Source: a virus (taxonomy: Duplodnaviria; Caudoviricetes). From it: a stretch of 64,000 nucleotides of DNA. The notes under the pieces were generated by a model. That model ran no database searches. It was given only the letters and a program-made list of their open reading frames with translations, and was not told where the DNA came from. This document shows positions 4,196-59,719 of the stretch, in pieces. The position numbers and the translations under genes were made by a program. Positions within the stretch are counted from its first letter, which is position 1. The number at the start of each line of letters is the position of its first letter. The stretch is from the IMG/VR virus record IMGVR_UViG_3300020157_000005, positions 1,769 through 65,768 of that record; one strand, given 5' to 3'.

Positions 4196-7105
4196 CTAAT
4201 ATTTTGATAACCACTTCTTGTTAATTGCTCCACCGTATTGTTTCTTAACTGGATTTGCCGATGGTATAATACCTGTATTTTTGTAAAAACTATTAACCTT
4301 GTTTATTAAACTGCTCTGTTTTTTCTCATCTTCTATCCTCTTTTGTCCAGATTTTGAGTACTTCCTAAAAGGGTGTTCGTTATCTTCTCCGCTTCCAGAT
4401 GTAATGTAACCATTCTTATAGAGACCATATGCACCAATAACCCCTAAAGCCCCTGCTTGTACTTTAGCAAGATTCACTAAAGTCTTTCTCATCGCATGTG
4501 CCCGTGCTATTCTTTGAGAGAGTTTATACTGTTCATCTTCAAGAGCATATCTCTTATTCATTGATTCATCGTATGCTTTTCTTTCAGATACAGTATATTT
4601 TTCAACTTTACCTTTTCTTATTGCATATTGAGCATTCAGTTGACTTTTAACATCTAATAGCCGTTTATTCATAATTTCATCTGCGCCATTAAGAATATTT
4701 GTGTACTCCTTAAACTTACCCACACTCATAGTTTTAAGGTCAGAGGTTGAACGCATTGTTTGATGCATTGCCTGTCTCCTTTGTAGTAATGATTTAGTGG
4801 AGGGCATATCCTTACTTAAAGCATATAATAAAGCATCTACTCTATCATCAAAATTACCTAATGTAGATGCGTAGGATGAATTTCCATATGTACCATTTGT
4901 TACAACTCTAATACCCGTTGCTTTAGATACTTCATCAAGTACAGCCTTAGCTTGAGGTTTATTTGCAAGGTGTTCTATGAGTGTTCCTGGACTTCTTACA
5001 TTTGCCAAACCCCATTCAACTCCATGGTCTTCCATTATATTCGCTACCTTTGTCGCCTCATCTGCAGTAAACTTTATTTTCCCATCAGTGGCTTTTCTTA
5101 TACTTAATGTATAGGAGAGAGGGTCTTCTTTATTTAAAAGATTATTTATACTAACTTGTTTATGACTGTATACAGCCATACCATGCTGTGAGTCACCGAG
5201 GAGAACGTGATTTAATCCAGCCCCCATATTCTGTCCTCCCTTACCTGGTGCCCAATTCTTTAATGCCTCCTCTATATTATTATCGTTATTAACACTTCTA
5301 CTCAGTGTAGTTTGGTTCATAAAAAAGTCATTCAATACAAGTTGCATCCTCTTAGGATCTGCTGCAATATGTTCATTGTTTCCAATGAAGTTCATTGAGT
5401 TAAGTATTTTATGATTATTTTCAACATCAGATAATTGAGCTGGATCAAATTGGTGACCAATGTTCCCCTTGGAACCAACTAGTTTCTGCATATATTGTTT
5501 CTGTGCCTCCAATACTTTATCAGGGTCTGCAAGATGTATATACTGATCAATCTTTGTTATATGCTTATTTTTAGTACTTTCATAAGCATCCATTATAGTC
5601 TTGATTGTAGGATCCGTCTTTGCAATAAGTTCATCAGCTGTATACGGAATGTGTAGCGGTTTGTCTGTCTTAATACTATTCCTTGCTGCTTCTGCAAACT
5701 CATCTGGAGCAAATTGATGGAATAACTCACTAGCCCTGTCTCCTGTCGCATAACCATTCTCATCTTGTTCAATTACATTGAAGTCAATTTCTCCAGCTTT
5801 ACCTAACTTAGAATCTATTGTATGTGTTTGTGCCAGACCCGTATTCTGAATAAATGGTAACTTATCCTTTACATTCTTATCATAGTTTGTTTTGGATATA
5901 AGTACATCATAATCTCCAACCACATGAGGGAGGTCTGCACTGGCTACACCTTTGGCAGATCCAAACACCTTTCCCCCGGTCAAATTCTCAATGTGATCTA
6001 CATTACTCTTTACTGTGTTATGATAGTTATTTTCAATACTTACAGCAGAAATACTCTTATTTTCTGTAGTTACCTCTTTTCCTTTATTTGTAAACTCAGT
6101 TACAGTTGAAGGCAGTTCTATTTTAGGAGTTACTACTTCTCCTGTCTTGAAGTTTATAATAGGTGTCCCAGTAGTTGGTTTACCAAAAGTTTCATTTGCA
6201 AATGCTATCTTCCCATCATCAGTTATACTTGCTGCCTCTTTAATGGTACTTGCATTACTTATAGCCTTCTCCTTAGCATAAATACTATTATAAAGTGGAT
6301 TTATACTGTTGCGATTATCTGAAAGCTGGTTAAGCATACCATCCAGCTTATTTTCCTTTATATTTAATGCATATCGAGCTTTATTTATTTCATCAACTGC
6401 TTCCCTATGTTTTTGATACAGGTTCTCAAAGTCCTTATCTAAACCACTTATCTTGTATGGAGTAGCCGCATCTTTTACAGATTGAGGTATTGCATCAATA
6501 GTTTTTTCCCCATATTTTTTTAACCAGTTTGGTAAAAATGAAGATTTCGCTACCTGAGTACCTTCAGGAAGATATGATGCAGTTTTTGCAGCAATAGCCG
6601 CATTTGCTTTTATATAACCTTTTGCTGCAGTTTTTCCTAAATTGTATAACCCTTCAGCACCTTCAGCAGCAGTACCTGCATCAATTATCTTTTCTATAAA
6701 TTCATCAGCTCTTTGACCTTTGTTGTCTTCTTTTGCCCATTTGGTGTATCCTATAGGATTACCTTGATCATCTCTTCCTGCATCCCTGTTCATCTCATGC
6801 AATCTTTGTGCATGTTCTTCTTGTCCATATGGTGTATATACCGGTGCTGGTCCCATATGCTGAGACATAATATATTCTTGTTGTTTCTGTATATCAGCTT
6901 GTACAGCTTCATCATCAGCTCTTTTCTGAGTATACTTCAATAATGCATCAACTTGTTTCTGGGACATCTTTTGACCAGGTACATTAGCAGTAGTTGTTCC
7001 TACAGATATACCTCGTATTGGTTGTGTAGGTACAATAGCAGTTTGGTCAGGACTCCATTGGAGCTTGTCACCATCTTTAGCATACTTTGTTAACCACTTT
7101 GCCAT
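4196..7105 (-). CDS. Putative cargo protein with a Pol-beta-superfamily nucleotidyltransferase-like domain, 969 aa
   Basis: VFGS-x14-DYDVLI followed by EIDFNV; coiled-coil flanks; short hydrophobic stretch near the C-terminus; KWLTKY/KWLSKY at the termini. Confidence 0.55.
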   Translation of the reverse strand: MAKWLTKYAKDGDKLQWSPDQTAIVPTQPIRGISVGTTTANVPGQKMSQKQVDALLKYTQKRADDEAVQADIQKQQEYIMSQHMGPAPVYTPYGQEEHAQRLHEMNRDAGRDDQGNPIGYTKWAKEDNKGQRADEFIEKIIDAGTAAEGAEGLYNLGKTAAKGYIKANAAIAAKTASYLPEGTQVAKSSFLPNWLKKYGEKTIDAIPQSVKDAATPYKISGLDKDFENLYQKHREAVDEINKARYALNIKENKLDGMLNQLSDNRNSINPLYNSIYAKEKAISNASTIKEAASITDDGKIAFANETFGKPTTGTPIINFKTGEVVTPKIELPSTVTEFTNKGKEVTTENKSISAVSIENNYHNTVKSNVDHIENLTGGKVFGSAKGVASADLPHVVGDYDVLISKTNYDKNVKDKLPFIQNTGLAQTHTIDSKLGKAGEIDFNVIEQDENGYATGDRASELFHQFAPDEFAEAARNSIKTDKPLHIPYTADELIAKTDPTIKTIMDAYESTKNKHITKIDQYIHLADPDKVLEAQKQYMQKLVGSKGNIGHQFDPAQLSDVENNHKILNSMNFIGNNEHIAADPKRMQLVLNDFFMNQTTLSRSVNNDNNIEEALKNWAPGKGGQNMGAGLNHVLLGDSQHGMAVYSHKQVSINNLLNKEDPLSYTLSIRKATDGKIKFTADEATKVANIMEDHGVEWGLANVRSPGTLIEHLANKPQAKAVLDEVSKATGIRVVTNGTYGNSSYASTLGNFDDRVDALLYALSKDMPSTKSLLQRRQAMHQTMRSTSDLKTMSVGKFKEYTNILNGADEIMNKRLLDVKSQLNAQYAIRKGKVEKYTVSERKAYDESMNKRYALEDEQYKLSQRIARAHAMRKTLVNLAKVQAGALGVIGAYGLYKNGYITSGSGEDNEHPFRKYSKSGQKRIEDEKKQSSLINKVNSFYKNTGIIPSANPVKKQYGGAINKKWLSKY

Positions 7106-38686: not shown

Positions 38687-39394
38687 ATGGTTGCAATAGT
38701 CATTATAATAGTAGCAGGGTTCGTGATATGGGTATCGAGTAACAGTACTCATGATCACCATGTATATACCCCACCGGTTGCTAAGAAGCCACTATCAGTA
38801 GATGAATGGAATAAGTCCGTGATAAAGGCGGGTATGGGTCATCTGGTGTACAGAGGTCCTGGTGCTGCTGATATACCATTGAACCCTACACCTCAGTTAA
38901 TTCCTGTAATCCCTTCTACTGATCCCGACAAAGGAGTATGGTATACTAATGGTATGAAGGGAACAGTGCCTGCAGTATGTATAGCTCAATATGATCTACA
39001 GACAGGTAATATGATGACAAAGAAAGAAGCACTGGAATGGTATATAGACCCATTGATAGCTGGTAACCCGATATCATCTGCAGAGCAGTTAGTGTCAGAT
39101 GCTCTCAATGAATTCCCGGTAGAATGGTTTCGTGAGGTATCCTTCATGGGTATGCCACTACCATCAGGTAAGCATGGTCGAGTTGACTTCTATATACCAT
39201 CACTGTCATTGGTAATAGAGTATGATGGGGAAGGGTGGCATAATACTGCAGAGCAATTAACCAGAGATAGAATGAAAGACACCTTCTGCAGTCAATGGGG
39301 TCTCACTATGATCAGACTGAATCGGAAGCACTACTATCATATGCCCTACACTATATCAGGTATACTGAGTAAGTACGGTATCAGGCGCAGGTAA
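38687..39394 (+). CDS. Membrane-anchored DUF559/Vsr-like PD-(D/E)xK endonuclease
   Basis: N-terminal TM helix; SSAEQ, RVDFYIP, LVIEYDG..WH, RDRMKD, MIRL. Confidence 0.8.
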   Translation: MVAIVIIIVAGFVIWVSSNSTHDHHVYTPPVAKKPLSVDEWNKSVIKAGMGHLVYRGPGAADIPLNPTPQLIPVIPSTDPDKGVWYTNGMKGTVPAVCIAQYDLQTGNMMTKKEALEWYIDPLIAGNPISSAEQLVSDALNEFPVEWFREVSFMGMPLPSGKHGRVDFYIPSLSLVIEYDGEGWHNTAEQLTRDRMKDTFCSQWGLTMIRLNRKHYYHMPYTISGILSKYGIRRR

Positions 39395-39857: not shown

Positions 39858-39973
39858 CTTATACGTGTGTTATATGGGTAACCTGTATATCGGAAATCTT
39901 ATACGTGTGTTAGTAAGGTAACCAGTCTAGTTAAACCACCCCGCCTTCACATTTGATATGCCTATACCCCGCC
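39858..39973. repeat. Direct repeats at the strand-switch region
   Basis: CTTATACGTGTGTTA-N4-GGTAACC at 39858 and 39898 (40-bp period); ACCCCGCC at 39938 and 39966. Confidence 0.75.
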
Positions 39974-40013
39974 AGTGGTAATAGGAATTCTTAATCTCAA
40001 AAAAATATATAAC

Positions 40014-40340
40014 ATGGCACAAGTAACAATTAATGCGCAGGTAATGACAGTAAGGGCTCACAGCTTCGGTGACTCATGCGATTGGTCACTGAACAACTAC
40101 GCCATCATGGGTAGTAATGGTATGACAGAGCAGCAGATATGTGCTCACTTGGAAACACATGGCTACCTGATTACTAAGTCAGGTAAGGCGGTGTTCCTTA
40201 ATGACCCGAATTGGAAACCTATCAATGCACCTACAGCTGAAGATGCAAATGCAGTAGCCGTTGCAGCTAAACCTAAGACAGCTGTAACAATACGGCCAAT
40301 TGCAAGGTTGACTGCTGCTGAAATGGAAGCAGCTGCATAA
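40014..40340 (+). CDS. Hypothetical early protein (start MAQVTIN)
   Basis: A-rich leader; followed by an intrinsic terminator. Confidence 0.65.
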   Translation: MAQVTINAQVMTVRAHSFGDSCDWSLNNYAIMGSNGMTEQQICAHLETHGYLITKSGKAVFLNDPNWKPINAPTAEDANAVAVAAKPKTAVTIRPIARLTAAEMEAAA

Positions 40341-40347
40341 CCTGCAC

Positions 40348-40375
40348 AGGGGGACAGAACATCGTCCCCCTTTTT
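40348..40375 (+). terminator. Rho-independent terminator
   Basis: GGGGGAC-loop-GTCCCCC-TTTTT. Confidence 0.85.
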
Positions 40376-40409
40376 CCATCTCTTCTCAGCCATTAGAGTA
40401 GCATCTTAT

Positions 40410-40485
40410 ATACAGTCAGTTGTAGTTCTAGTCCAGATGTGAGCAATCACTAAACAGGTGAAGTCCGAACTACAGTTGGCTGTAT
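40410..40485 (+). ncRNA. Structured RNA candidate A
   Basis: 18-bp outer stem (40411-40428/40467-40484) with 3 G-U pairs, enclosing a GUGA-GCAA-UCAC GNRA hairpin. Confidence 0.55.
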
Positions 40486-40548
40486 TCTTTAATGCATCAT
40501 AACCTGTTATCCGTTAACAACTATTCATCACATCATAATATCAATCAT

Positions 40549-40818
40549 ATGCAGCAGTTCATGTCATGCTCCTGGGATGGAATGTCCCTTATAGCAGAGT
40601 TAAAGGAAGGAGAGTATAAGTGCATCAGCAAGTACTCATCAGGCAACCTGACCCAGATCACTAACAATGGTCAACCTCTTCAATGTCTTCGTAGGGTAGC
40701 CTACCATGACACCATCGAGGAGGCTCAGAACCCAGGTAAGAGGGATCGTATGATAAGAAATGGTCAGATGGAGGACCGTTCCATAATATCAGGCAGACCT
40801 ATGATATATGACTATTGA
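40549..40818 (+). CDS. Hypothetical early protein
   Basis: Plus-strand ORF with protein-like composition. Confidence 0.5.
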   Translation: MQQFMSCSWDGMSLIAELKEGEYKCISKYSSGNLTQITNNGQPLQCLRRVAYHDTIEEAQNPGKRDRMIRNGQMEDRSIISGRPMIYDY

Positions 40819-41330
40819 CCATCATCTACAGTACATTAATAACCAGTGGGTTACAGTTGTAGCTCATTGGTTATCTATTACTGTTCATGTGCAGTTATAC
40901 ATAGTGGTTATTCACCTATCTTCAATGGATAAGGTTTTTCTCCTAGGGTGGAGACAACTTTTTACGTCTGAGAGTATTTTATGCTACCATCTATTAACAA
41001 TAGTTGGTATGTATAACTGATTTTGAGTGGTGTATTGAGGGTTAAGGGTAGAATACTATGTCAGTATCGCTGGATATTCCAACATTATTGACCACATATA
41101 CCAACATATCTGGAAAACCTCGGCCCATCAATATAAGGTCATTGCTGGTTACTGCGTATGTATAGGGTTATAGTAGTAGTGGTATTGGGAGTAGTGTAGG
41201 TGTGAGGAGTTAATGGTTAGTTGTTACTGTCTACAATGGATTATGTGCTGGTTCGATTCCAGTAGTAGGGTATAGTATTGTTGTTTAATTCATTTATATA
41301 GTGTGGGCCTACTACAGTGGCTGTTATGTT

Positions 41331-41510
41331 ATGTCATTTAACGAACTTGGTAAAGAAAAAGGAATAGATGAAAGAAAGTTTGAAATACTTACAGACTTAT
41401 TAGCATCTTTACCTGATGGTTTATTCACAAGCTGTGATGAGCTTGCAGATTATCTTAGGTTTGCTGCAGATGGTATAGAATCTAAAGATAGATATGCAAT
41501 GTCAGCTTAA
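41331..41510 (+). CDS. Small acidic hypothetical protein (start MSFNEL)
   Basis: Preceded by the repeated leader shared with the gene at 43007. Confidence 0.5.
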   Translation: MSFNELGKEKGIDERKFEILTDLLASLPDGLFTSCDELADYLRFAADGIESKDRYAMSA

Positions 41511-41647
41511 TAACATAGTGGTAGGCTTTCGGGCAACCTTAATAGACAGTATCTCTAGCTTGTTATTTTATTTCCAGTTGGTAGACCTGTAAAACTGGTA
41601 TTTTTTATCTCTTTCTAAAGTAAGGCTACTGTACAGCCATTTCATAT

Positions 41648-41851
41648 ATGCAAAAGTATTTACTAATTGATGATAACGGTCAAGGTGTTTGTGTTCTTGA
41701 TGAAGTAATTGCTTCTTCTGAAGAATCTGCAATAGCTCACTTTGATAATAATGGTTGGATGGTAGGTGAAGTAATGACTGAAGTTGACTTTATAACTACC
41801 GGTAAGAATGAAGCTGATCTTAATGGTCTTGAAAGTCAAACTTTTGAGTAA
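41648..41851 (+). CDS. Small acidic hypothetical protein
   Basis: Plus-strand ORF. Confidence 0.55.
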   Translation: MQKYLLIDDNGQGVCVLDEVIASSEESAIAHFDNNGWMVGEVMTEVDFITTGKNEADLNGLESQTFE

Positions 41852-41940
41852 ATTATTATATCTATAGTAGAGAATAGTAATCAGCTCGCTACTGACTATA
41901 GGTGCTATGTATGGTTAGCTCTAATGCGCCAACAGTTATT

Positions 41941-42273
41941 ATGACAAATTCACAGAAGATTGTTGAGATACAGCAGGAAATAGCTGTTATCAAGAGTAAG
42001 ATGCATGAGTATTATCCTGGTGGTTTATCTTCAGAAGACCATGAAGATGTATCTGATCGGTATCAGGAGATGCTGGAATACAATGAGTATTGTGATGAGC
42101 AGAGGGAGATTATCTCGGCTCTACAGGAAGATATAGTGGCTCTACAGTCATTACATCCTTCACATACTTATAATGATCCGGCTATAGAGGAGATAGAGTG
42201 GCCTGTTGTTGATGGTCTCAGGTATGTCTCTGAAGAAGTTGGCTATGTAGACCAGGATGAAGAGTATAGGTAG
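41941..42273 (+). CDS. Acidic coiled-coil hypothetical protein (start MTNSQK)
   Basis: D/E-rich ORF. Confidence 0.55.
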   Translation: MTNSQKIVEIQQEIAVIKSKMHEYYPGGLSSEDHEDVSDRYQEMLEYNEYCDEQREIISALQEDIVALQSLHPSHTYNDPAIEEIEWPVVDGLRYVSEEVGYVDQDEEYR

Positions 42274-42276
42274 AAG

Positions 42277-42399
42277 GTAGTAGTATAGGTAGGTGATGTG
42301 GGTGGGGAAGAACTCGGAGGTCAATAATCAAATCTGTGACGATCAGGTGCTCCCTGTGACTGTTGATCCATTACCACATCATCTACCTGTAGTTACTAC
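42277..42399 (+). ncRNA. Structured RNA candidate B
   Basis: About 25-bp outer stem (42277-42301/42374-42399) with G-U pairs and one bulge; inner stem GGUCAAUAAUCA/UGACUGUUGAUC. Confidence 0.55.
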
Positions 42400-42469
42400 T
42401 CTCTCTCTTCAGGGTAGTTTATAAGTGTTTAAGTTCACAAAGTTTTAAAAGCCAGTTATCTGGAGATGT

Positions 42470-42712
42470 ATGAAAAAGTTAGTAGTTCTGTTGATGATAG
42501 TATACTTACTGCCAGGTTGTTGTAGATATGACTGTGAGGTAGTTAGATGCGTTGTGCAGAAAAAGTATATAGACTCAGGCCCAAAGAGATCTGATGAGTA
42601 TATAATAGTATGTGATACTTCCAAACAGATAAGTATTACATATCAACTATATAACTATCTGAGAGTAGGAGATACAGTATATAGAGATAGTAACTGTCAT
42701 CTAACTCATTAA
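42470..42712 (+). CDS. Small lipoprotein
   Basis: MKK + hydrophobic stretch + LPG^C lipobox; YNYLRVGDTV OB-like tail. Confidence 0.65.
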   Translation: MKKLVVLLMIVYLLPGCCRYDCEVVRCVVQKKYIDSGPKRSDEYIIVCDTSKQISITYQLYNYLRVGDTVYRDSNCHLTH

Positions 42713-42743
42713 GTTCACTTAGGTTACCTTTCAGCCTTGTCTC

Positions 42744-42897
42744 TACAGGAAGTAAGTTTGGTCTACAGCAGGGTAATTCCTCGTCTGTAGATATATGTTA
42801 ATCCTCGATAATGGATGTGTACTTCAGGTATGCTCCATCAGTGAGTTGATAGAGGCTGTCACAGAGTATCGTGATAACCAGTAGCAGCTCTTCTGTA
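42744..42897 (+). ncRNA. Structured RNA candidate C (multi-hairpin)
   Basis: Hairpins at 42762-42791, 42811-42838 and 42851-42891 in an ORF-free gap. Confidence 0.4.
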
Positions 42898-43006
42898 AAT
42901 CGTTAGTACCTTACACCTCTATACAACAGTTGGTTGTGTATGTGTTTTATCTGCAGATTTATTCATTCATATAAGGTGTGTGCCTACCATAAGTGGCTGT
43001 TATAGT

Positions 43007-43462
43007 ATGCAAATATTCAGTAATACAACATACAAGGTTCAACTGCCAGGTACACAGATGGGTAAATATACTCTCGATGACAAGTATCTGGCACTGGATA
43101 ATGAGGAGGGACCATTGATGGTAGTGTTAGCCAGTCATTTCGGTGTTGGTGAGTCTATATCACCTGATGAGCTAGTGATGATACATGATCATAGTGATGA
43201 TCCTATATCTGGGCCATGGAAACTCTACAGTAGTAAACAACTGGATAGCAACGAGTTAGTGGATATACTACAGGAATGTATTGGTATGACCATAGAATGC
43301 AGCCGTAGAGTAGGTATACTGGGCATTACAGTAGCATATGAGCCGCATGAACTAGACAAGGTATATGTGATGGACATGAGCACAGGATATGACCGGTGGG
43401 AGACATATGCTGATGTAGAGAAAGAACCAGGTACATGGGCTATAGAACAAGTAATCAGGTAG
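43007..43462 (+). CDS. Acidic hypothetical protein (start MQIFSN)
   Basis: Plus-strand ORF after the repeated leader. Confidence 0.6.
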   Translation: MQIFSNTTYKVQLPGTQMGKYTLDDKYLALDNEEGPLMVVLASHFGVGESISPDELVMIHDHSDDPISGPWKLYSSKQLDSNELVDILQECIGMTIECSRRVGILGITVAYEPHELDKVYVMDMSTGYDRWETYADVEKEPGTWAIEQVIR

Positions 43463-43475
43463 TAGAGTTAGTTAT

Positions 43476-43607
43476 CTGTAGTACCTGTAGTGTCAGCAGT
43501 GGTGAGTATGGAGAATTGTACCGCTATAGTAGTACTCCATATGTGTGGCCGGTAAGGATGCTATAGTCCTTGCCACACATCTGCTGTTGATACTACAGGT
43601 ACTGTAG
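43476..43607 (+). ncRNA. Structured RNA candidate D (three-way junction)
   Basis: Continuous 27-bp outer stem (43476-43502/43581-43607, 6 G-U pairs); arms UAUGGAG/CUCCAUA and UGUGUGGC/GCCACACA. Confidence 0.65.
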
Positions 43608-43655
43608 TGTAATGTTGTTAGTAATCATTAAGTTCACATTGTAAATCAAACAGTT

Positions 43656-43922
43656 ATGATAGATAATAGCTATTTCAACAGAAGTGAAAAGTATGAAACA
43701 GTCTGCATGTTAGAAAATGGGGAAAAGCGTCTATATGATGCGTGTGTAGGTGAAGTATGGTGGAAAGAAAAGCATCCTACAGAAGATATAAAGACTGCAT
43801 ATACAGCAGAACTGTTCGAATATCTGGGGCGTGGTGTGTTATACAGTGCCAATGGTATAGTACAATCAAATATAACCATGGATAACCCAAGGAATATAGA
43901 CCACTTCTGGGTAAGGAAATAG
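43656..43922 (+). CDS. Hypothetical protein
   Basis: AAGTTCAC motif 26 nt upstream. Confidence 0.6.
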   Translation: MIDNSYFNRSEKYETVCMLENGEKRLYDACVGEVWWKEKHPTEDIKTAYTAELFEYLGRGVLYSANGIVQSNITMDNPRNIDHFWVRK

Positions 43923-44002
43923 GACAGTCAGCAGTATCTAAGTAGCTCGACAGCATTAAAATGCTCTGTTGGGCAACTCTATAGGGTTTACGTTGATCCT
44001 GA

Positions 44003-44188
44003 AGTAAGTGTGTAATGTAGATAGGTGGTGTGGAACAGGTCATTATGAAGTACCTGGAGTCAAACCGGAGCAGAAGTCCTCTCAGTGTGAAATGATATAT
44101 CACTGACAAGGTAAGGTTGTGGGTAATATTGCAATAACGTAATATCCATGGTTCCATTCACATCATCTATCTGCAGTATACACATACT
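44003..44188 (+). ncRNA. Structured RNA candidate E (multibranch)
   Basis: 17-bp stem 44016-44032/44159-44175 extended by GUGUGUA/UAUACAC; inner arms CAGGU/ACCUG, UCAGUG/CACUGA, AUAUUGC/GUAAUAU. Confidence 0.55.
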
Positions 44189-44342
44189 ACTGATGATACA
44201 CATACTGTAGATACATTGTGTGCCCTCTCTATACCCTTTACTGTAGATAGTATGGTTACTGCAGGTTAGTATACTGGCTGTAGATAGGTAGCTAATAAGG
44301 TAAGAAGGAAAACGCTGTAACTCATTGATAATCAATGTGCAT

Positions 44343-44420
44343 TGTTACTGTATCTGTAACAGAGTGTTACTGTTATAGAAACAAATATACGTGCAGATAC
44401 TTGTTACTGTTATGGAAACA
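44343..44420. repeat. Three 19-bp imperfect palindromic boxes upstream of the RepL-like gene
   Basis: TGTTACTGTATCTGTAACA (44343), TGTTACTGTTATAGAAACA (44365), TGTTACTGTTATGGAAACA (44402). Confidence 0.8.
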
Positions 44421-44453
44421 ATGTACCTTCGTGTGGTAACAAATGCTACAGAT

Positions 44454-44987
44454 ATGGAAACAAATACAACCAAATCAGGACCAAAGATATCAGAATATGA
44501 TGCAAGTAGTGAGTCACCATATACTGTACAACTACAGAGTAAGTATGTACAGCCAAATAGTGAACACAGTGCAGTAGAGATAGATGGTGTTCTACATGGT
44601 ATATATCCAATAGGAAAGGGTAAGACAATACTCTCGGACAATGCTATATACAGCAAACTGTTCCGGGGTAATACAGAGGTATTGATGGGGCTCTCAGAAC
44701 CTGCAGCCAAGATGTTCTACTACATATCGGAGTTCATAGGAGCCAACAAAGATGAGGTGTGCATACTACAAGAAGATTACTTACAATTCGCAGGATACAA
44801 GGCCAAGAGTAGGCTCACATACTATCGAGGTGTAGAGGGACTACTAAAGGCCAATATCATAGCCAGGAAAACAGGTAGTCAGTCATGCTACTGGATCAAT
44901 CCCAATGTACTATACAATGGAGATAGAACCAAGTTGAAGAATACAGTAGTACAGCCACCAAAAGATAAACCATTCAATGGATTCTGA
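44454..44987 (+). CDS. RepL-like winged-helix replication protein (start METNTT)
   Basis: LSEPAAKMFYYI...TYYRGVEGLLKANIIA...YWINPNVLYNGDR; TACCTTCG element at 44424-44431. Confidence 0.75.
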   Translation: METNTTKSGPKISEYDASSESPYTVQLQSKYVQPNSEHSAVEIDGVLHGIYPIGKGKTILSDNAIYSKLFRGNTEVLMGLSEPAAKMFYYISEFIGANKDEVCILQEDYLQFAGYKAKSRLTYYRGVEGLLKANIIARKTGSQSCYWINPNVLYNGDRTKLKNTVVQPPKDKPFNGF

Positions 44988-45007
44988 AACACTCAAACAA
45001 CATAGAT

Positions 45008-45622
45008 ATGATAGTAAGTAAAATAGAGTTCCCGCAGTTCACAGGTATCAAGTGTACAATGATGCCATTCATACAAGGAGACAGCAAATCTCTACCAGAT
45101 ATATACCAGCCATATGCTGATATCATAGATAATATGTATCTCGAGAATGGTGATATAGGCTATCTGACTATAGATGAATCATATGTACTGGCTAATAGCT
45201 CACAAAGAGGTTACAATAGTATAGGTATAGACCGTAATGTACATATAGAAGTAGGTATACATCAGGATATATATGCATGGGGAGGGGGAGGTACCAGTAC
45301 AGGTTGGGGTAGAAGTAGGAAAACTCTACTGAATAAGAACACCAAAGTATTGATAGCCAATAGTATATCCAATACATGTAGGTTATGGGATAAGCTACAC
45401 ATGAAGCCGACCAATGATGGCGATCTATCTGAGTATATAACAGAATACCCAATACATGAAGGATTACTGATGAAAGCTGGAGAGGTAGCTAATATTAGTA
45501 TATTCACACCACATGAATGTGTTAATCAACTAATATCAGGTAATAGACAATTCATCAGAATAGTGGGAAACGGTGTAACAGGCAGAGAAGAGTACTTCAC
45601 AGTCAATCCATTACTACAATAG
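45008..45622 (+). CDS. 2OG-Fe(II) dioxygenase-like (DSBH) protein
   Basis: YLTIDES...QRG...VHIE, FTPHEC, RQFIRI fit the HxD/E...H...R pattern. Confidence 0.65.
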   Translation: MIVSKIEFPQFTGIKCTMMPFIQGDSKSLPDIYQPYADIIDNMYLENGDIGYLTIDESYVLANSSQRGYNSIGIDRNVHIEVGIHQDIYAWGGGGTSTGWGRSRKTLLNKNTKVLIANSISNTCRLWDKLHMKPTNDGDLSEYITEYPIHEGLLMKAGEVANISIFTPHECVNQLISGNRQFIRIVGNGVTGREEYFTVNPLLQ

Positions 45623-53453: not shown

Positions 53454-54203
53454 ATGGCAAAGGTGTTAGTACAATTTACAAAGAACTACGATATGTTCGA
53501 ACTAATGGAAGACAATCGTGATGTAAAAGATGAAAGGCATATAAGAGAATTAATGGGATCTATGGAACGTAATGGATTCCTACAGAGTAAGGCAATATCA
53601 GTAAAAAATAATGGAAGCAAATATATAGTACTAGACGGTCAACATAGGTTAGAGGCAGCTAAGAGGTTGGAAATAGCTGTATGGTACAATATAGATGATG
53701 ATATACCGGAAGCAGCCCTACCTGATCTGCAGATAGCTAAAAAGTGGTTACCGAAGGACTATCTAAAGCACTTTGTAGTAAATGGTGTGAAGAATTATAT
53801 AAAGTTACAGGAGATAGCAGAGGTATGCCCTAAAGTGAGTATGACAACTATTGCATTGTTGTTGGAAGGGTCTTCACAAGGTGATGGTACAAATATTCGG
53901 TTCCGTACAGGTACACTGAAGATCACACACTTGGAAAAAGCGATGAAGACATTACAGTATGCTAATGAGATATACAGCCTATATAAGTATGAATGGTTAT
54001 ATGGTAGAACATTCCTATGTGCATTCATGAAGATCATATATACAGACGGGTATAAACAAAAAACACTGCTAGAAAAACTGAAGTACCGCAGTGAAGAGTT
54101 CCGACAAATGCTAACTAAAGAAGGGTATGTAAAGTTGTTCAATGATATATACAACTACAAGACACAAGTACATAACCGGGTGAAATTCGAGTACGGAGAA
54201 TAA
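53454..54203 (+). CDS. ParB/Srx-like N-terminal domain protein
   Basis: DNRDV...LMGSM...VLDGQHRLEAAKRL. Confidence 0.8.
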   Translation: MAKVLVQFTKNYDMFELMEDNRDVKDERHIRELMGSMERNGFLQSKAISVKNNGSKYIVLDGQHRLEAAKRLEIAVWYNIDDDIPEAALPDLQIAKKWLPKDYLKHFVVNGVKNYIKLQEIAEVCPKVSMTTIALLLEGSSQGDGTNIRFRTGTLKITHLEKAMKTLQYANEIYSLYKYEWLYGRTFLCAFMKIIYTDGYKQKTLLEKLKYRSEEFRQMLTKEGYVKLFNDIYNYKTQVHNRVKFEYGE

Positions 54204-54224: not shown

Positions 54225-54259
54225 CTTGTAGGGTATGGCTAAATGTTGTACCTTACAAG
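54225..54259 (+). other. Long intergenic hairpin
   Basis: 15-bp stem CUUGUAGGGUAUGGC/GUUGUACCUUACAAG with G-U pairs. Confidence 0.55.
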
Positions 54260-59248: not shown

Positions 59249-59451
59249 AAATAGAAACCAAGTACAATATCGGAGATACCGTATGGTTCATGGATGGAAG
59301 TAAGCCAATATCAGATACAGTGACAAACTGGGCCATAGAAGGTAACCACGGTGGGAAAGTGCTAGAATACTACTATATGCCAAAATCATTCAATTCAGTG
59401 CCTGTAGATAAGTTATACAGTACAAAGGAACAGCTAATACAAGCACTATGA
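59245..59451 (+). CDS. Small SH3-like hypothetical protein
   Basis: MKIETKYNIGDTVW...LYSTKEQL. Confidence 0.65.
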   Translation: MKIETKYNIGDTVWFMDGSKPISDTVTNWAIEGNHGGKVLEYYYMPKSFNSVPVDKLYSTKEQLIQAL

Positions 59452-59642
59452 CAGACAAAGCATTGATAGTGTTCGGCAATATCACATTCGAGGAGAATCC
59501 GAATAGGGCACTGATACATGAAGTAGAACAAACACTGATAGTATCTAGGTACATAGCGGCAAAGGTGGCAGATGATCTGTGCAATGAATGGGCTGGATGG
59601 ATAATACCCTCACAGTACACCGGAGAAATAGTGTGGGAATAG
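59448..59642 (+). CDS. Hypothetical protein
   Basis: Coupled ORF. Confidence 0.5.
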   Translation: MTDKALIVFGNITFEENPNRALIHEVEQTLIVSRYIAAKVADDLCNEWAGWIIPSQYTGEIVWE

Positions 59643-59654
59643 GTAACAACACAA

Positions 59655-59719
59655 CCAGACAAGATACAGGAATGGGTAACAGGGCTATAGGCTCTCTACT
59701 CGTTTCTGTAGGTGTCTGG
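59655..59719 (+). other. Long intergenic hairpin
   Basis: 14-bp stem UACAGGAAUGGGUA/UACUCGUUUCUGUA plus CCAGAC/GUCUGG. Confidence 0.55.

What the first reader, a model, noticed from the sequence alone, without database searches (positions are those of the whole stretch)
40410..44188. Series of long-stem-closed, branched RNAs interleaved with early genes
Seen: at least four intergenic elements (40410-40485, 42277-42399, 43476-43607, 44003-44188) plus a hairpin cluster (42744-42897) share one architecture. Each has a 17-27-bp closing helix whose deviations are almost all G-U pairs on the plus strand, enclosing a different branched interior. G-U tolerance points to selection on plus-strand RNA rather than DNA cruciforms. 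They lack U-tracts and are too large for terminators. Known: T7 early mRNA is cut by RNase III at intergenic stems. Inference: the helices are processing sites that also release a panel of distinct small RNAs early in infection, such as decoys or inhibitors of CRISPR, toxin-antitoxin or other defences, or new ribozymes. I could not match any to a known family by eye.
Basis: partly seen in the sequence, partly recalled or inferred. Interest (0 to 1): 0.8.

Follow-up and report, generated by a model that had tools for sequence, protein, structure and literature searches.

The report
Long RNA stems between phage early genes
A crAss-like phage places unusually long RNA double helices right after several of its small early genes; the helices themselves, not the sequences they enclose, look like the selected feature, and they sit where gene cassettes have been swapped between related phages.

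Summary
The long helices are real. E1 (40410-40485), E2 (42272-42404), E3 (43472-43612) and E4 (44003-44188) close with 19, 29, 31 and 30 pairs. Together they hold 19 G-U pairs and no A-C mismatch. An extra element, EX, lies at 40879-41032. These are the five strongest plus-strand helices in the 64-kb window. As Watson-Crick DNA repeats none reaches the threshold, so selection acts on a single strand, most simply the plus-sense RNA.

The "panel of small RNAs" reading is weak. Six of 8 interiors fold no better than shuffles. Interiors are replaced between relatives while arms persist. Rfam finds nothing.

The arms behave as a conserved module. E2 and E4 arms are paralogous. An unrelated viral contig carries E2-type arms around a different interior. 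In the closest relative, homology breaks at or within the 5' arm of all four elements.

Best reading, confidence 0.45: these are cis-acting intercistronic dsRNA stems, probably host RNase III or stability sites as in T7 early mRNA, and their arms double as recombination linkers, as T4 PeSLs do. No RNA data were available, so cleavage is untested. I rate it a new variant of a known kind, of moderate interest.

The parts
40348..40376 (+). Canonical intrinsic terminator (GC-rich 8-bp stem plus T-tract) after ORF 39975-40340, about 35 nt upstream of E1
   Evidence: terminator scan. It is conserved in G1 within a 98.8% identical block. Analogous terminators precede the E1-site hairpins in L067 and G2.
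40410..40485 (+). E1: 19-bp closing helix (16 WC, 3 GU) around a 38-nt interior
   Evidence: Interior z +0.08. The same site holds a hairpin of different sequence in G1 (z -5.9), in L067 (13 bp, z -5.4) and weakly in G2 (z -1.25).
40839..40874 (+). 16-bp hairpin just upstream of EX
   Evidence: z -6.8. The G2-clade copy has z -6.7 and differs by two one-sided changes read by eye from alignment A4: C-G to U-G and G-U to A-U. G1 has a diverged, weaker hairpin (z -2.0).
40879..41032 (+). EX: element with a 9-bp outer and 11-12-bp inner helix inside a ~480-nt non-coding stretch. A 19-nt core at 40954-40972 is invariant.
   Evidence: The core is identical in 6 of 6 sequences. The inner helix is perfect in window and G1. 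In the G2 clade it loses two pairs and gains outer ones (read by eye).
42272..42404 (+). E2: 29-pair closing helix that starts inside the stop codon of ORF 41902-42273, around a 72-nt interior
   Evidence: Arms recur in L093 (94% and 88%) around an unrelated interior. G1 keeps only the 5' arm.
42429..42438 (+). TTAAGTTCAC motif, copy 1 of 3 exact copies (others at 42709-42718 and 43628-43637). Copies follow E2 and E3 by about 15-25 nt and precede the next start codon.
   Evidence: the only 3 exact copies in 64 kb, all on the plus strand within 1.2 kb. Its function is unknown. A promoter or protein-binding site is my inference.
42744..42897 (+). Cluster of three separate hairpins with no closing helix
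   Evidence: z -3.2. It is 189 of 193 identical to G1, inside a 99% block, so it carries no covariation information.
43472..43612 (+). E3: 31-pair closing helix (7 GU) around a 78-nt interior of two hairpins
   Evidence: Interior z -3.1. The G1 copy has 24 of 24 identical 5'-arm bases, a different 58-nt interior, 2 compensatory double changes, 4 one-sided pairing-preserving changes and 2 disruptions.
44003..44188 (+). E4: 30-pair closing helix (5 GU) around a 113-nt interior. Its arms are paralogous to E2's.
   Evidence: It is absent from G1, where homology stops 13 nt into the 5' arm.
54225..54259 (+). 15-bp hairpin after ORF 53454-54203. It shows that U-tract-less intergenic hairpins also occur outside the early block.
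   Evidence: z -5.5.
59655..59718 (+). Hairpin of about 27 pairs after ORF 59448-59642, without a U-tract
   Evidence: z -5.0.

Best explanation
E1-E4 are cis-acting double-stranded RNA stems that punctuate the plus-sense early transcript of a crAss-like phage. Each is placed at or shortly after the stop codon of a small early ORF. The helix is the selected feature and the enclosed sequence is largely spacer.

Most likely they are substrates of the host's RNase III, or at least determinants of mRNA processing and stability. They would cut or insulate the polycistronic early RNA into gene-sized units, as the five RNase III signals do in T7 early mRNA.

Because the arms are conserved while genes and interiors are not, the same arms also serve as short homologous linkers at which early-gene cassettes are exchanged between phages.

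Shown: the helices, their strand asymmetry, their position, the conservation of arms over interiors, and the coincidence with mosaic junctions. Inferred: transcription as one RNA, cleavage by RNase III, and the recombination role.
For: (1) Strand-specific pairing. There are 19 G-U and 0 A-C among the deviations in 109 pairs. No Watson-Crick-only helix scores >= 13, and the best minus-RNA helix scores 16 against 27, 24, 19, 18, 18 on the plus strand. Minus-strand folds are weaker in 5 of 5 cases.

(2) Position. The stems start 0, 10, 70 and 81 nt after stop codons of plus-strand ORFs.

(3) Length. The 19-31 pairs equal or exceed the helix lengths of known RNase III substrates. The review PMC3867540 (passages) describes cellular substrates as generally under about 20 bp and says longer dsRNA is also degraded. 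It also cites five processing signals in the T7 polycistronic early precursor.

(4) Pairing is kept through change.
- E2, L093 and E4 arms: 50 of 51 cells paired, 2 pairs with double changes, 2 with one-sided changes.
- E3 window versus G1: 2 double changes, 4 one-sided pairing-preserving changes and one added pair, against 2 disruptions.
- E1 site: four phages carry four unrelated hairpin sequences, and 3 of 4 have z <= -3.9.

(5) Interiors are dispensable. Six of 8 have z between -0.8 and +1.0. Interiors are replaced in G1 E3 and in L093.

(6) Junctions. Window-versus-G1 homology blocks end at 40411, 42301, 43477/43500 and 44015, that is at or inside the 5' arm of 4 of 4 elements. Neighbouring blocks have 78%, 99% or no identity. 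With 26 block ends in about 7.1 kb, my hand estimate for 4 of 4 by chance is about 2e-4.

(7) L093 shares only the E2 arms with the window. tblastx finds no other similarity.
Against: No transcript or cleavage data exist: no RNA run was listed.

The host is unknown. The closest cultured relative by terminase (37% identity) infects a cyanobacterium. The phage itself encodes no RNase III or dsRBD domain (0 of 3 genomes).

The number of relatives is tiny, 2-6 sequences per element. The formal shuffle control for the E2-family arms is therefore not significant: 50 of 500 shuffles reach the observed value.

E1-site hairpins in L067 (13 bp) and G2 (about 11 bp, z -1.25) are short for RNase III.

Unlike T7 sites, these helices are near-perfect. 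Cleavage of both strands would leave no protective 3' hairpin on the upstream mRNA.

The architecture is not general. I found no comparable cluster in the first 12 kb of phi14:2 or the first 50 kb of Lbo-JY46. G2 has fewer such helices.

G-T wobble would also be tolerated in plus-strand single-stranded DNA.

The plus strand here is G-rich (GC skew +0.12 to +0.22), which raises the G-U background. In 20 shuffles the best helix scored 15-22.
Confidence: 0.45

Rival explanations
1. The stems are uncleaved structural hairpins. They could be barriers to 3'-5' exonucleases, 5'-end stabilisers of the next transcript, or pause or termination signals for the phage's own RNA polymerase, whose signals are unknown. 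RNase III would not be involved.
For: E1 lies about 35 nt after a canonical terminator, so it could be the 5' stem-loop of a new transcript. E1-site hairpins in relatives are only 11-13 bp. Long U-tract-less hairpins also follow ORFs at 54225-54259 and 59655-59718. The TTAAGTTCAC motif after E2 and E3 would fit a stem-then-promoter layout. The phi14:2 preprint (10.1101/2020.03.07.982082, passages) reports that early transcripts made by the virion polymerase share no detectable upstream motif, so its signals are open.
Against: Helices of 29-31 pairs are far longer than a stabiliser or terminator needs. The phage uses ordinary terminators where it wants termination. Enclosing 38-113 nt of spacer is unnecessary for a barrier.
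Confidence: 0.2
2. The elements are primarily DNA-level entities: mobile or recombinogenic inverted-repeat modules, MITE-like or PeSL-like linkers. On this reading the RNA pairing is a by-product.
For: Presence or absence between genomes with 96-99% identical flanks. A half element in G1. E2-type arms in an otherwise unrelated viral contig. Paralogous arms in E2 and E4. Four of 4 elements sit at mosaic junctions. PeSLs in T4-type phages are stem-loop plus promoter cassettes at indel junctions (abstracts of PMC2839356 and PMC4122927).
Against: A DNA inverted repeat should decay symmetrically, but the count is 19 G-T against 0 A-C, and no Watson-Crick-only helix scores >= 13. Copy number is very low: 2 in the window, 1 half copy in G1, 1 in G004, 0 in G2 and G005. 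A 21-mer of the arm has 0 matches in the genome collection. By eye I saw no target-site duplication. Sigma-70-like promoters are not enriched (29 found against 42.4 expected).
Confidence: 0.15
3. One reading: the helices release a panel of distinct functional small RNAs (decoys, anti-defence RNAs or ribozymes) carried in the interiors.
For: E3's interior is structured (z -3.1). EX has a 19-nt core invariant in 6 of 6 sequences. In phi14:2, two long early intergenic regions are transcribed abundantly and stably, with unknown function (passages of 10.1101/2020.03.07.982082).
Against: Six of 8 interiors fold like shuffles. Interiors are not alignable between window and G1 (E3) or between window and L093 (E2). 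E4 is absent and E2 truncated in G1. There is no Rfam family or ribozyme match at E <= 5 apart from 4 chance-level hits. ARAGORN finds no tRNA. The early region of phi14:2 lacks such helices.
Confidence: 0.1
4. Chance pairing in a G+T-rich strand, with no function.
For: Block shuffles occasionally give helices scoring up to 22. The sliding z-scan shows only modest regional enrichment.
Against: Scores of 27 and 24 exceed all 20 shuffles. Five of the 6 helices scoring >= 17 fall in 6% of the window, all between genes. Arms are conserved in G1 and L093.
Confidence: 0.03

Closest known systems
RNase III processing signals of the phage T7 early polycistronic mRNA (R0.3-R1.3)
   Same: Intercistronic stems in a phage early transcript, placed after early genes, with no U-tract and a helix about two turns long. 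The review PMC3867540 (passage) cites five such signals in the ~7000-nt T7 precursor.
   Different: T7 signals are simple hairpins with an internal loop that directs single-strand cleavage (recalled, not from a call). Here the helices are near-perfect, 19-31 pairs long, rich in G-U, and enclose 38-113 nt of variable sequence. The phage is crAss-like with an unknown host, and cleavage is untested.
PeSL (promoter-early stem-loop) cassettes of T4-type phages
   Same: Stem-loops between small ORFan genes in a hyperplastic early region. Insertion, deletion and replacement junctions between close relatives fall at the motifs (abstracts of PMC2839356 and PMC4122927; compare).
   Different: PeSLs pair a strong sigma-70-like promoter with a short terminator stem-loop. 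Here I found no enriched sigma-70-like promoter. The stems are much longer, lack U-tracts and enclose variable interiors. I looked for no mini-circle evidence.
Correia repeat enclosed elements (Neisseria) and similar transcribed MITE-like repeats
   Same: Inverted-repeat arms around a core, sitting in transcribed intergenic DNA and forming RNA hairpins that RNase III can bind and either cleave or protect (abstract of PMC2649163 as shown in the listing).
   Different: Correia elements are high-copy chromosomal repeats with a conserved core. Here copy number is 1-2 per genome, the interior is not conserved, I saw no target duplication, and no copy was found in the bacterial genome collection.
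Abundant early non-coding RNAs of crAss-like phage phi14:2 (g004-g005 and g005-g006 junctions)
   Same: Non-coding stretches among the early genes of a crAss-like phage, transcribed in the sense direction, with unknown function (passages of 10.1101/2020.03.07.982082).
   Different: There is no sequence similarity, and I found no long closing helices in the first 12 kb of phi14:2 (best plus-strand score 17, inside or next to coding sequence).

Membership tests
T7-type RNase III processing signal | Double helix of about two turns located between cistrons of a polycistronic early transcript | tested here: met
   19, 29, 31 and 30 pairs, starting 0-81 nt after stop codons of plus-strand ORFs. That they are transcribed as one RNA is inferred, not shown.
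T7-type RNase III processing signal | Site-specific cleavage by RNase III leaving 2-nt 3' overhangs | not testable with these tools
   No RNA run was listed. This needs an in vitro assay or end mapping.
T7-type RNase III processing signal | RNase III available in the infected cell | tested here: inconclusive
   The phage genomes G000, G001 and G002 encode none: 0 of 3 for PF14622 and 0 of 3 for PF00035. The host is unknown. The control genomes of those calls show the domains in 8 and 9 of 14 bacteria.
PeSL regulatory cassette | Lies in a hyperplastic region of small ORFan genes, and indel or replacement junctions coincide with it | tested here: met
   Nine of 10 early ORFs have no Pfam or PHROG family at E <= 0.001. 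Homology blocks end at the 5' arms of 4 of 4 elements.
PeSL regulatory cassette | Strong sigma-70-like early promoter joined to the stem-loop | tested here: not met
   29 promoter-like sites against 42.4 expected in 37-48 kb, and none placed consistently at the elements. The TTAAGTTCAC motif after E2 and E3 is of unknown nature.
PeSL regulatory cassette | Stem-loop acts as an intrinsic terminator (stem plus U-tract) | tested here: not met
   E1-E4 are not followed by T-runs. The scan lists only a sub-hairpin of E3's 3' arm with a weak tail.
MITE / Correia-like element | Terminal inverted repeats | tested here: met
   Arms of 19-31 nt, but imperfect as DNA: no Watson-Crick helix scores >= 13.
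MITE / Correia-like element | Many dispersed copies with a conserved core | tested here: not met
   The E2/E4 arm motif occurs in 2 full elements in the window, 1 half element in G1, 1 in G004, and 0 in G2 and G005. A 21-mer has 0 matches in genome contigs. Interiors are unrelated.
MITE / Correia-like element | Target-site duplication at the ends | tested here: inconclusive
   I saw none by eye. Element ends are not sharply defined.
Any Rfam family (ribozymes, riboswitches, sRNAs, tRNA-like) | Covariance-model match at or near the gathering score | tested here: not met
   0 matches at gathering score for the whole window. At E <= 5 there are 2 chance-level hits in 39.7-44.5 kb, 0 in L093 and 2 in L005. 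ARAGORN finds 0 genes.

The most novel reading that the evidence does not exclude
The conserved arms are a portable 'clamp' module that moves between unrelated phages and can enclose arbitrary cargo. Transcribed early and cut by RNase III in the clamp, each element would release its cargo as a discrete small RNA. The phage would then carry an exchangeable cassette system for small RNAs (for example anti-defence decoys) that turns over as fast as its ORFan genes. The evidence that does not exclude this: the same arms with three unrelated interiors (window E2, window E4, L093); the structured interior of E3; the invariant EX core; and the abundant stable early non-coding RNAs reported for phi14:2.
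Probability: 0.1. Interest if true: 0.8.

Novelty: new variant of a known kind. Interest (0 to 1): 0.45.

Why it matters
Early regions of crAss-like phages are almost wholly uncharacterised. The promoter, terminator and processing signals of their virion RNA polymerase transcripts are unknown.

These stems are a concrete, testable set of candidate post-transcriptional punctuation marks for that early RNA. The 4-of-4 coincidence with mosaic junctions links RNA-level signals to the way early ORFan cassettes are shuffled. That link has so far been described mainly for T4-type PeSLs.

If RNase III cleavage is shown, it extends the T7 paradigm to a very different phage order. If the interiors prove to be released RNAs, it would be a new kind of exchangeable small-RNA cassette.

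Tried and rejected
Rfam at gathering score and at E <= 5 gave nothing usable. ARAGORN found no tRNA.

The look-up of sequencing runs, kind rna: no RNA holder was listed.

GenBank phages, blastn distant, with 40000-45000 gave no match.

Relatives. The search for related loci with ORF 42980-43462 gave no relative. With ORFs 45008-45622 and 38687-39394 it gave 5 loci, of which only L005 is close. The 16-mer scan returned 52 stretches, of which only 1 (the G1 record) aligned with the window by blastn. Of the loci, L087-L092 gave no real homology or only a 22-nt match.

Genome-contig scans for the E2 arm and for the T-loop-like hairpin both returned 0.

A phage-encoded RNase III or dsRBD was rejected: 0 of 3 genomes.

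A hairpin-promoter idea (N4-like, on the template strand) was rejected by inference, because the G-T wobbles lie on the non-template strand.

Invertible-segment and attC-like ideas were considered and set aside because of the 19:0 strand asymmetry and the lack of a recombinase nearby. They were not tested further.

A tRNA or attP reading of the T-loop-like hairpin at 41246-41266 gained no support.

I looked for the same architecture in phi14:2 (first 12 kb) and in Lbo-JY46 (first 50 kb only; the remaining 75 kb was not examined). Neither showed a comparable cluster.

Searches for printed descriptions of such stems in crAss-like phages turned up only the phi14:2 preprint. I read matching passages of it, not the whole text. 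Its supplementary files could list transcript ends but were not available.

I saw only the abstracts of PMC2839356 and PMC4122927, only the listing abstract of PMC2649163, and passages of PMC3867540.

Full report
CONTEXT. The window is most of a 65.8-kb IMG/VR viral contig, estimated 59% complete. It is crAss-like. The major capsid protein matches Pfam Crass_capsid at 1.4e-25. Terminase and portal match PHROGs, and a family-A DNA polymerase is present.

Structural genes occupy the minus strand up to about 37 kb. From about 38.6 kb, small ORFs run on the plus strand. Nine of the 10 ORFs tested there have no family at E <= 0.001. The first, 38687-39394, carries a nuclease-like domain.

The closest cultured relative by terminase is Leptolyngbya phage Lbo-JY46 at 37% identity. 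Cellulophaga, Flavobacterium and Bacteroides crAss-like phages follow at about 28%. The host is therefore unknown.

THE OBSERVATION. Folding confirms long closing helices at the stated places:

| Element | Coordinates | Pairs | WC | GU | Other deviations |
|---|---|---|---|---|---|
| E1 | 40410-40485 | 19 | 16 | 3 | none |
| E2 | 42272-42404 | 29 | 25 | 4 | one 1x1 mismatch, one bulge |
| E3 | 43472-43612 | 31 | 24 | 7 | one bulge |
| E4 | 44003-44188 | 30 | 25 | 5 | two 1x1 mismatches |

Across the four there are 19 G-U pairs, three 1x1 mismatches and two bulges. None of the mismatches is A-C. Plus-strand z-scores are -3.9, -5.1, -7.4 and -4.3. The complementary strand is weaker in every case.

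I wrote an ungapped helix scan and ran it over the whole 64 kb.
- With G-U allowed on the plus RNA, the five best helices (scores 27, 24, 19, 18, 18) all fall in 40.4-44.2 kb.
- With G-U allowed on the minus RNA, the best score is 16.
- With Watson-Crick pairs alone, nothing reaches 13.

In 20 block shuffles the best score ranged from 15 to 22. Scores 27 and 24 are therefore outliers on their own. The others are notable through clustering and intergenic position.

Two parts of the observation do not hold.
- The hairpin cluster 42744-42897 is three independent hairpins without a closing helix.
- The 'branched interiors' are not more structured than chance. Folded alone, interiors gave z +0.08 (E1), +0.99 (E2), -3.1 (E3) and +0.06 (E4). 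The relatives' interiors gave -0.8, +0.3 and -0.2, and EX gave -1.9.

A generic sliding z-scan of the plus strand (a coarse scan with 15 shuffles per window) shows only modest enrichment. Mean z is -0.92 against -0.19, and windows at z <= -3 number 3 of 48 against 8 of 283. It also shows that other long U-tract-less hairpins follow ORFs at 54225-54259 and 59655-59718.

RELATIVES. Only a few could be found.
- G1 is a complete 111.4-kb contig with terminal repeats (loci L005, L021, L070). It is the one close relative.
- A second clade (G2, 108 kb; L067, L068, L069, L086) shares only EX and a few short blocks.
- L093 (record G004, 39 kb) shares only the E2 arms.

WHAT IS CONSERVED. Window and G1 are a mosaic. 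Blocks of 78-100% identity alternate with unrelated sequence, and neighbouring blocks differ sharply: 78% next to 99%. Block ends fall at 40411 (E1's helix starts at 40410), 42301 (the inner end of E2's 5' arm), 43477 and 43500 (the two ends of E3's 5' arm) and 44015 (13 nt into E4's 5' arm). So all four elements sit on junctions. With 26 block ends in about 7.1 kb, I estimate by hand roughly 2e-4 for that coincidence.

Element by element:
- **E3.** Its 5' arm is 24 of 24 identical in G1. The interior is a different 58 nt and the 3' arm has diverged. The changes comprise 2 compensatory double changes, 4 one-sided pairing-preserving changes, one added pair and 2 disruptions.
- **E2.** G1 keeps the 5' arm only.
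- **E4.** It is absent from G1.
- **E1 site.** Downstream of a conserved terminator, four phages carry four unrelated hairpins: window 19 bp (z -3.9), G1 18+ bp (z -5.9), L067 13 bp (z -5.4) and G2 about 11 bp (z -1.25).
- **E2 and E4 arms.** They are paralogous. L093 has E2-type arms at 94% and 88% identity around an unrelated 72-nt interior (z -4.9 plus strand, -3.6 minus strand), although tblastx finds no other similarity to the window.
- **Formal count on the E2-type arms.** On the 17 inner pairs of these three copies, 50 of 51 cells pair, 2 pairs show double changes and 2 show one-sided changes. With three sequences the shuffle control is not significant: 50 of 500 shuffles reach the observed value.
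- **EX.** It behaves differently. A 19-nt core is invariant in 6 of 6 sequences, while its helix shifts register between clades.

INTERPRETATION. The 19:0 asymmetry and the absence of Watson-Crick-only helices argue for selection on one strand, most simply the plus-sense RNA. Plus-strand single-stranded DNA cannot be excluded.

The helix, not the interior, is what persists. Its position after stop codons, its length of 19-31 pairs and the lack of U-tracts resemble the RNase III signals that cut the T7 early precursor (PMC3867540, passage). A canonical terminator is used separately at 40348-40371.

Conserved arms at mosaic junctions, including arms shared with an unrelated phage, resemble the role of PeSL cassettes in T4-type phages (abstracts). 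Transcribed inverted-repeat elements that bind RNase III, such as Correia elements (listing abstract), are another parallel. However, copy number here is 1-2 per genome and none was found in bacterial genomes.

I therefore favour cis-acting intercistronic dsRNA stems whose arms double as recombination linkers. I hold RNase III cleavage as probable but unshown.

AGAINST. There are no expression data. The phage encodes no RNase III or dsRBD domain. Very few relatives are available. The equivalent hairpins in distant relatives are short. I found no comparable cluster in phi14:2 (first 12 kb) or in Lbo-JY46 (first 50 kb).

The small-RNA panel idea survives only for E3's interior and the EX core. 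It draws some encouragement from the abundant, stable early non-coding RNAs reported for phi14:2 (passages).

NOVELTY. Searches of the paper library found no description of such stems in crAss-like phages. Each ingredient has a precedent, so I rate this a new variant of a known kind, of moderate interest.

Noticed in passing
whole window: The hexamer CTGTAG and its complement occur 154 times against 57 expected. CTGTAGATA occurs 15 times against 1.8 expected. Twelve of those 15 are on the sense strand of the local genes, and most lie inside ORFs. The cause is unknown. The motif also recurs in the stems.
   Followed up: partly
window 44205-44463: Between E4 and ORF 44391-44987 there are three CTGTAGATA copies spaced 36-37 nt (44205, 44241, 44278). 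They are followed by three 20-nt iteron-like repeats (44365, 44402, 44444; 80-95% identical). The ORF has a weak RepL-like match (E 0.006). This may be an origin or operator region.
   Followed up: partly
window 40954-40972 (within EX): A 19-nt core is identical in 6 of 6 sequences from two diverged phage clades, while the flanks vary. It sits in a ~480-nt non-coding stretch (40819-41300). Its function is unknown.
   Followed up: partly
window 41246-41266: A hairpin with a tRNA T-loop-like sequence is conserved in G1 with two pairing-preserving changes. ARAGORN finds no tRNA, the surrounding fold is unremarkable, and there is no match in genome contigs. The interior of the L093 element also has a T-loop-like hairpin (seen by eye).
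   Followed up: partly
window 42429, 42709, 43628: TTAAGTTCAC occurs exactly three times in 64 kb, all on the plus strand within 1.2 kb. Two copies follow E2 and E3, and one overlaps the stop codon of ORF 42470-42712. The copy after E2 is conserved in G1.
   Followed up: no
window 39858-39929: Two 32-nt direct repeats (81% identical) lie upstream of ORF 39975-40340. They have partial matches in L067 and L069. They may be promoter or operator repeats at the head of the early block.
   Followed up: no
window 41227-41569 vs L005 4188-4654: Cassette replacement. Unrelated ORFs (window 41301-41510, G1 4291-4593) sit between conserved flanks that are 91% and 94% identical.
   Followed up: partly
L085 6554-6720 (G2 106554-106720), minus strand: A long helix (scan score 26, z -5.7) lies inside a 344-aa ORF of the more distant relative G2. 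It is unexplained.
   Followed up: partly
L093 5960-6056, 6800-6886, 7200-7290: In the unrelated contig that carries E2-type arms, a block of about 80 nt recurs before each small ORF, except the ORF that follows the E2-type element (seen by eye). It looks like a repeated promoter or leader cassette.
   Followed up: no
window 38687-39394: The first ORF of the plus-strand block has a nuclease-like C-terminal domain (Pfam DUF2726 at 1.9e-6; PHROG HNH or homing endonuclease at 1.3e-12). It lies next to the hyperplastic region.
   Followed up: no
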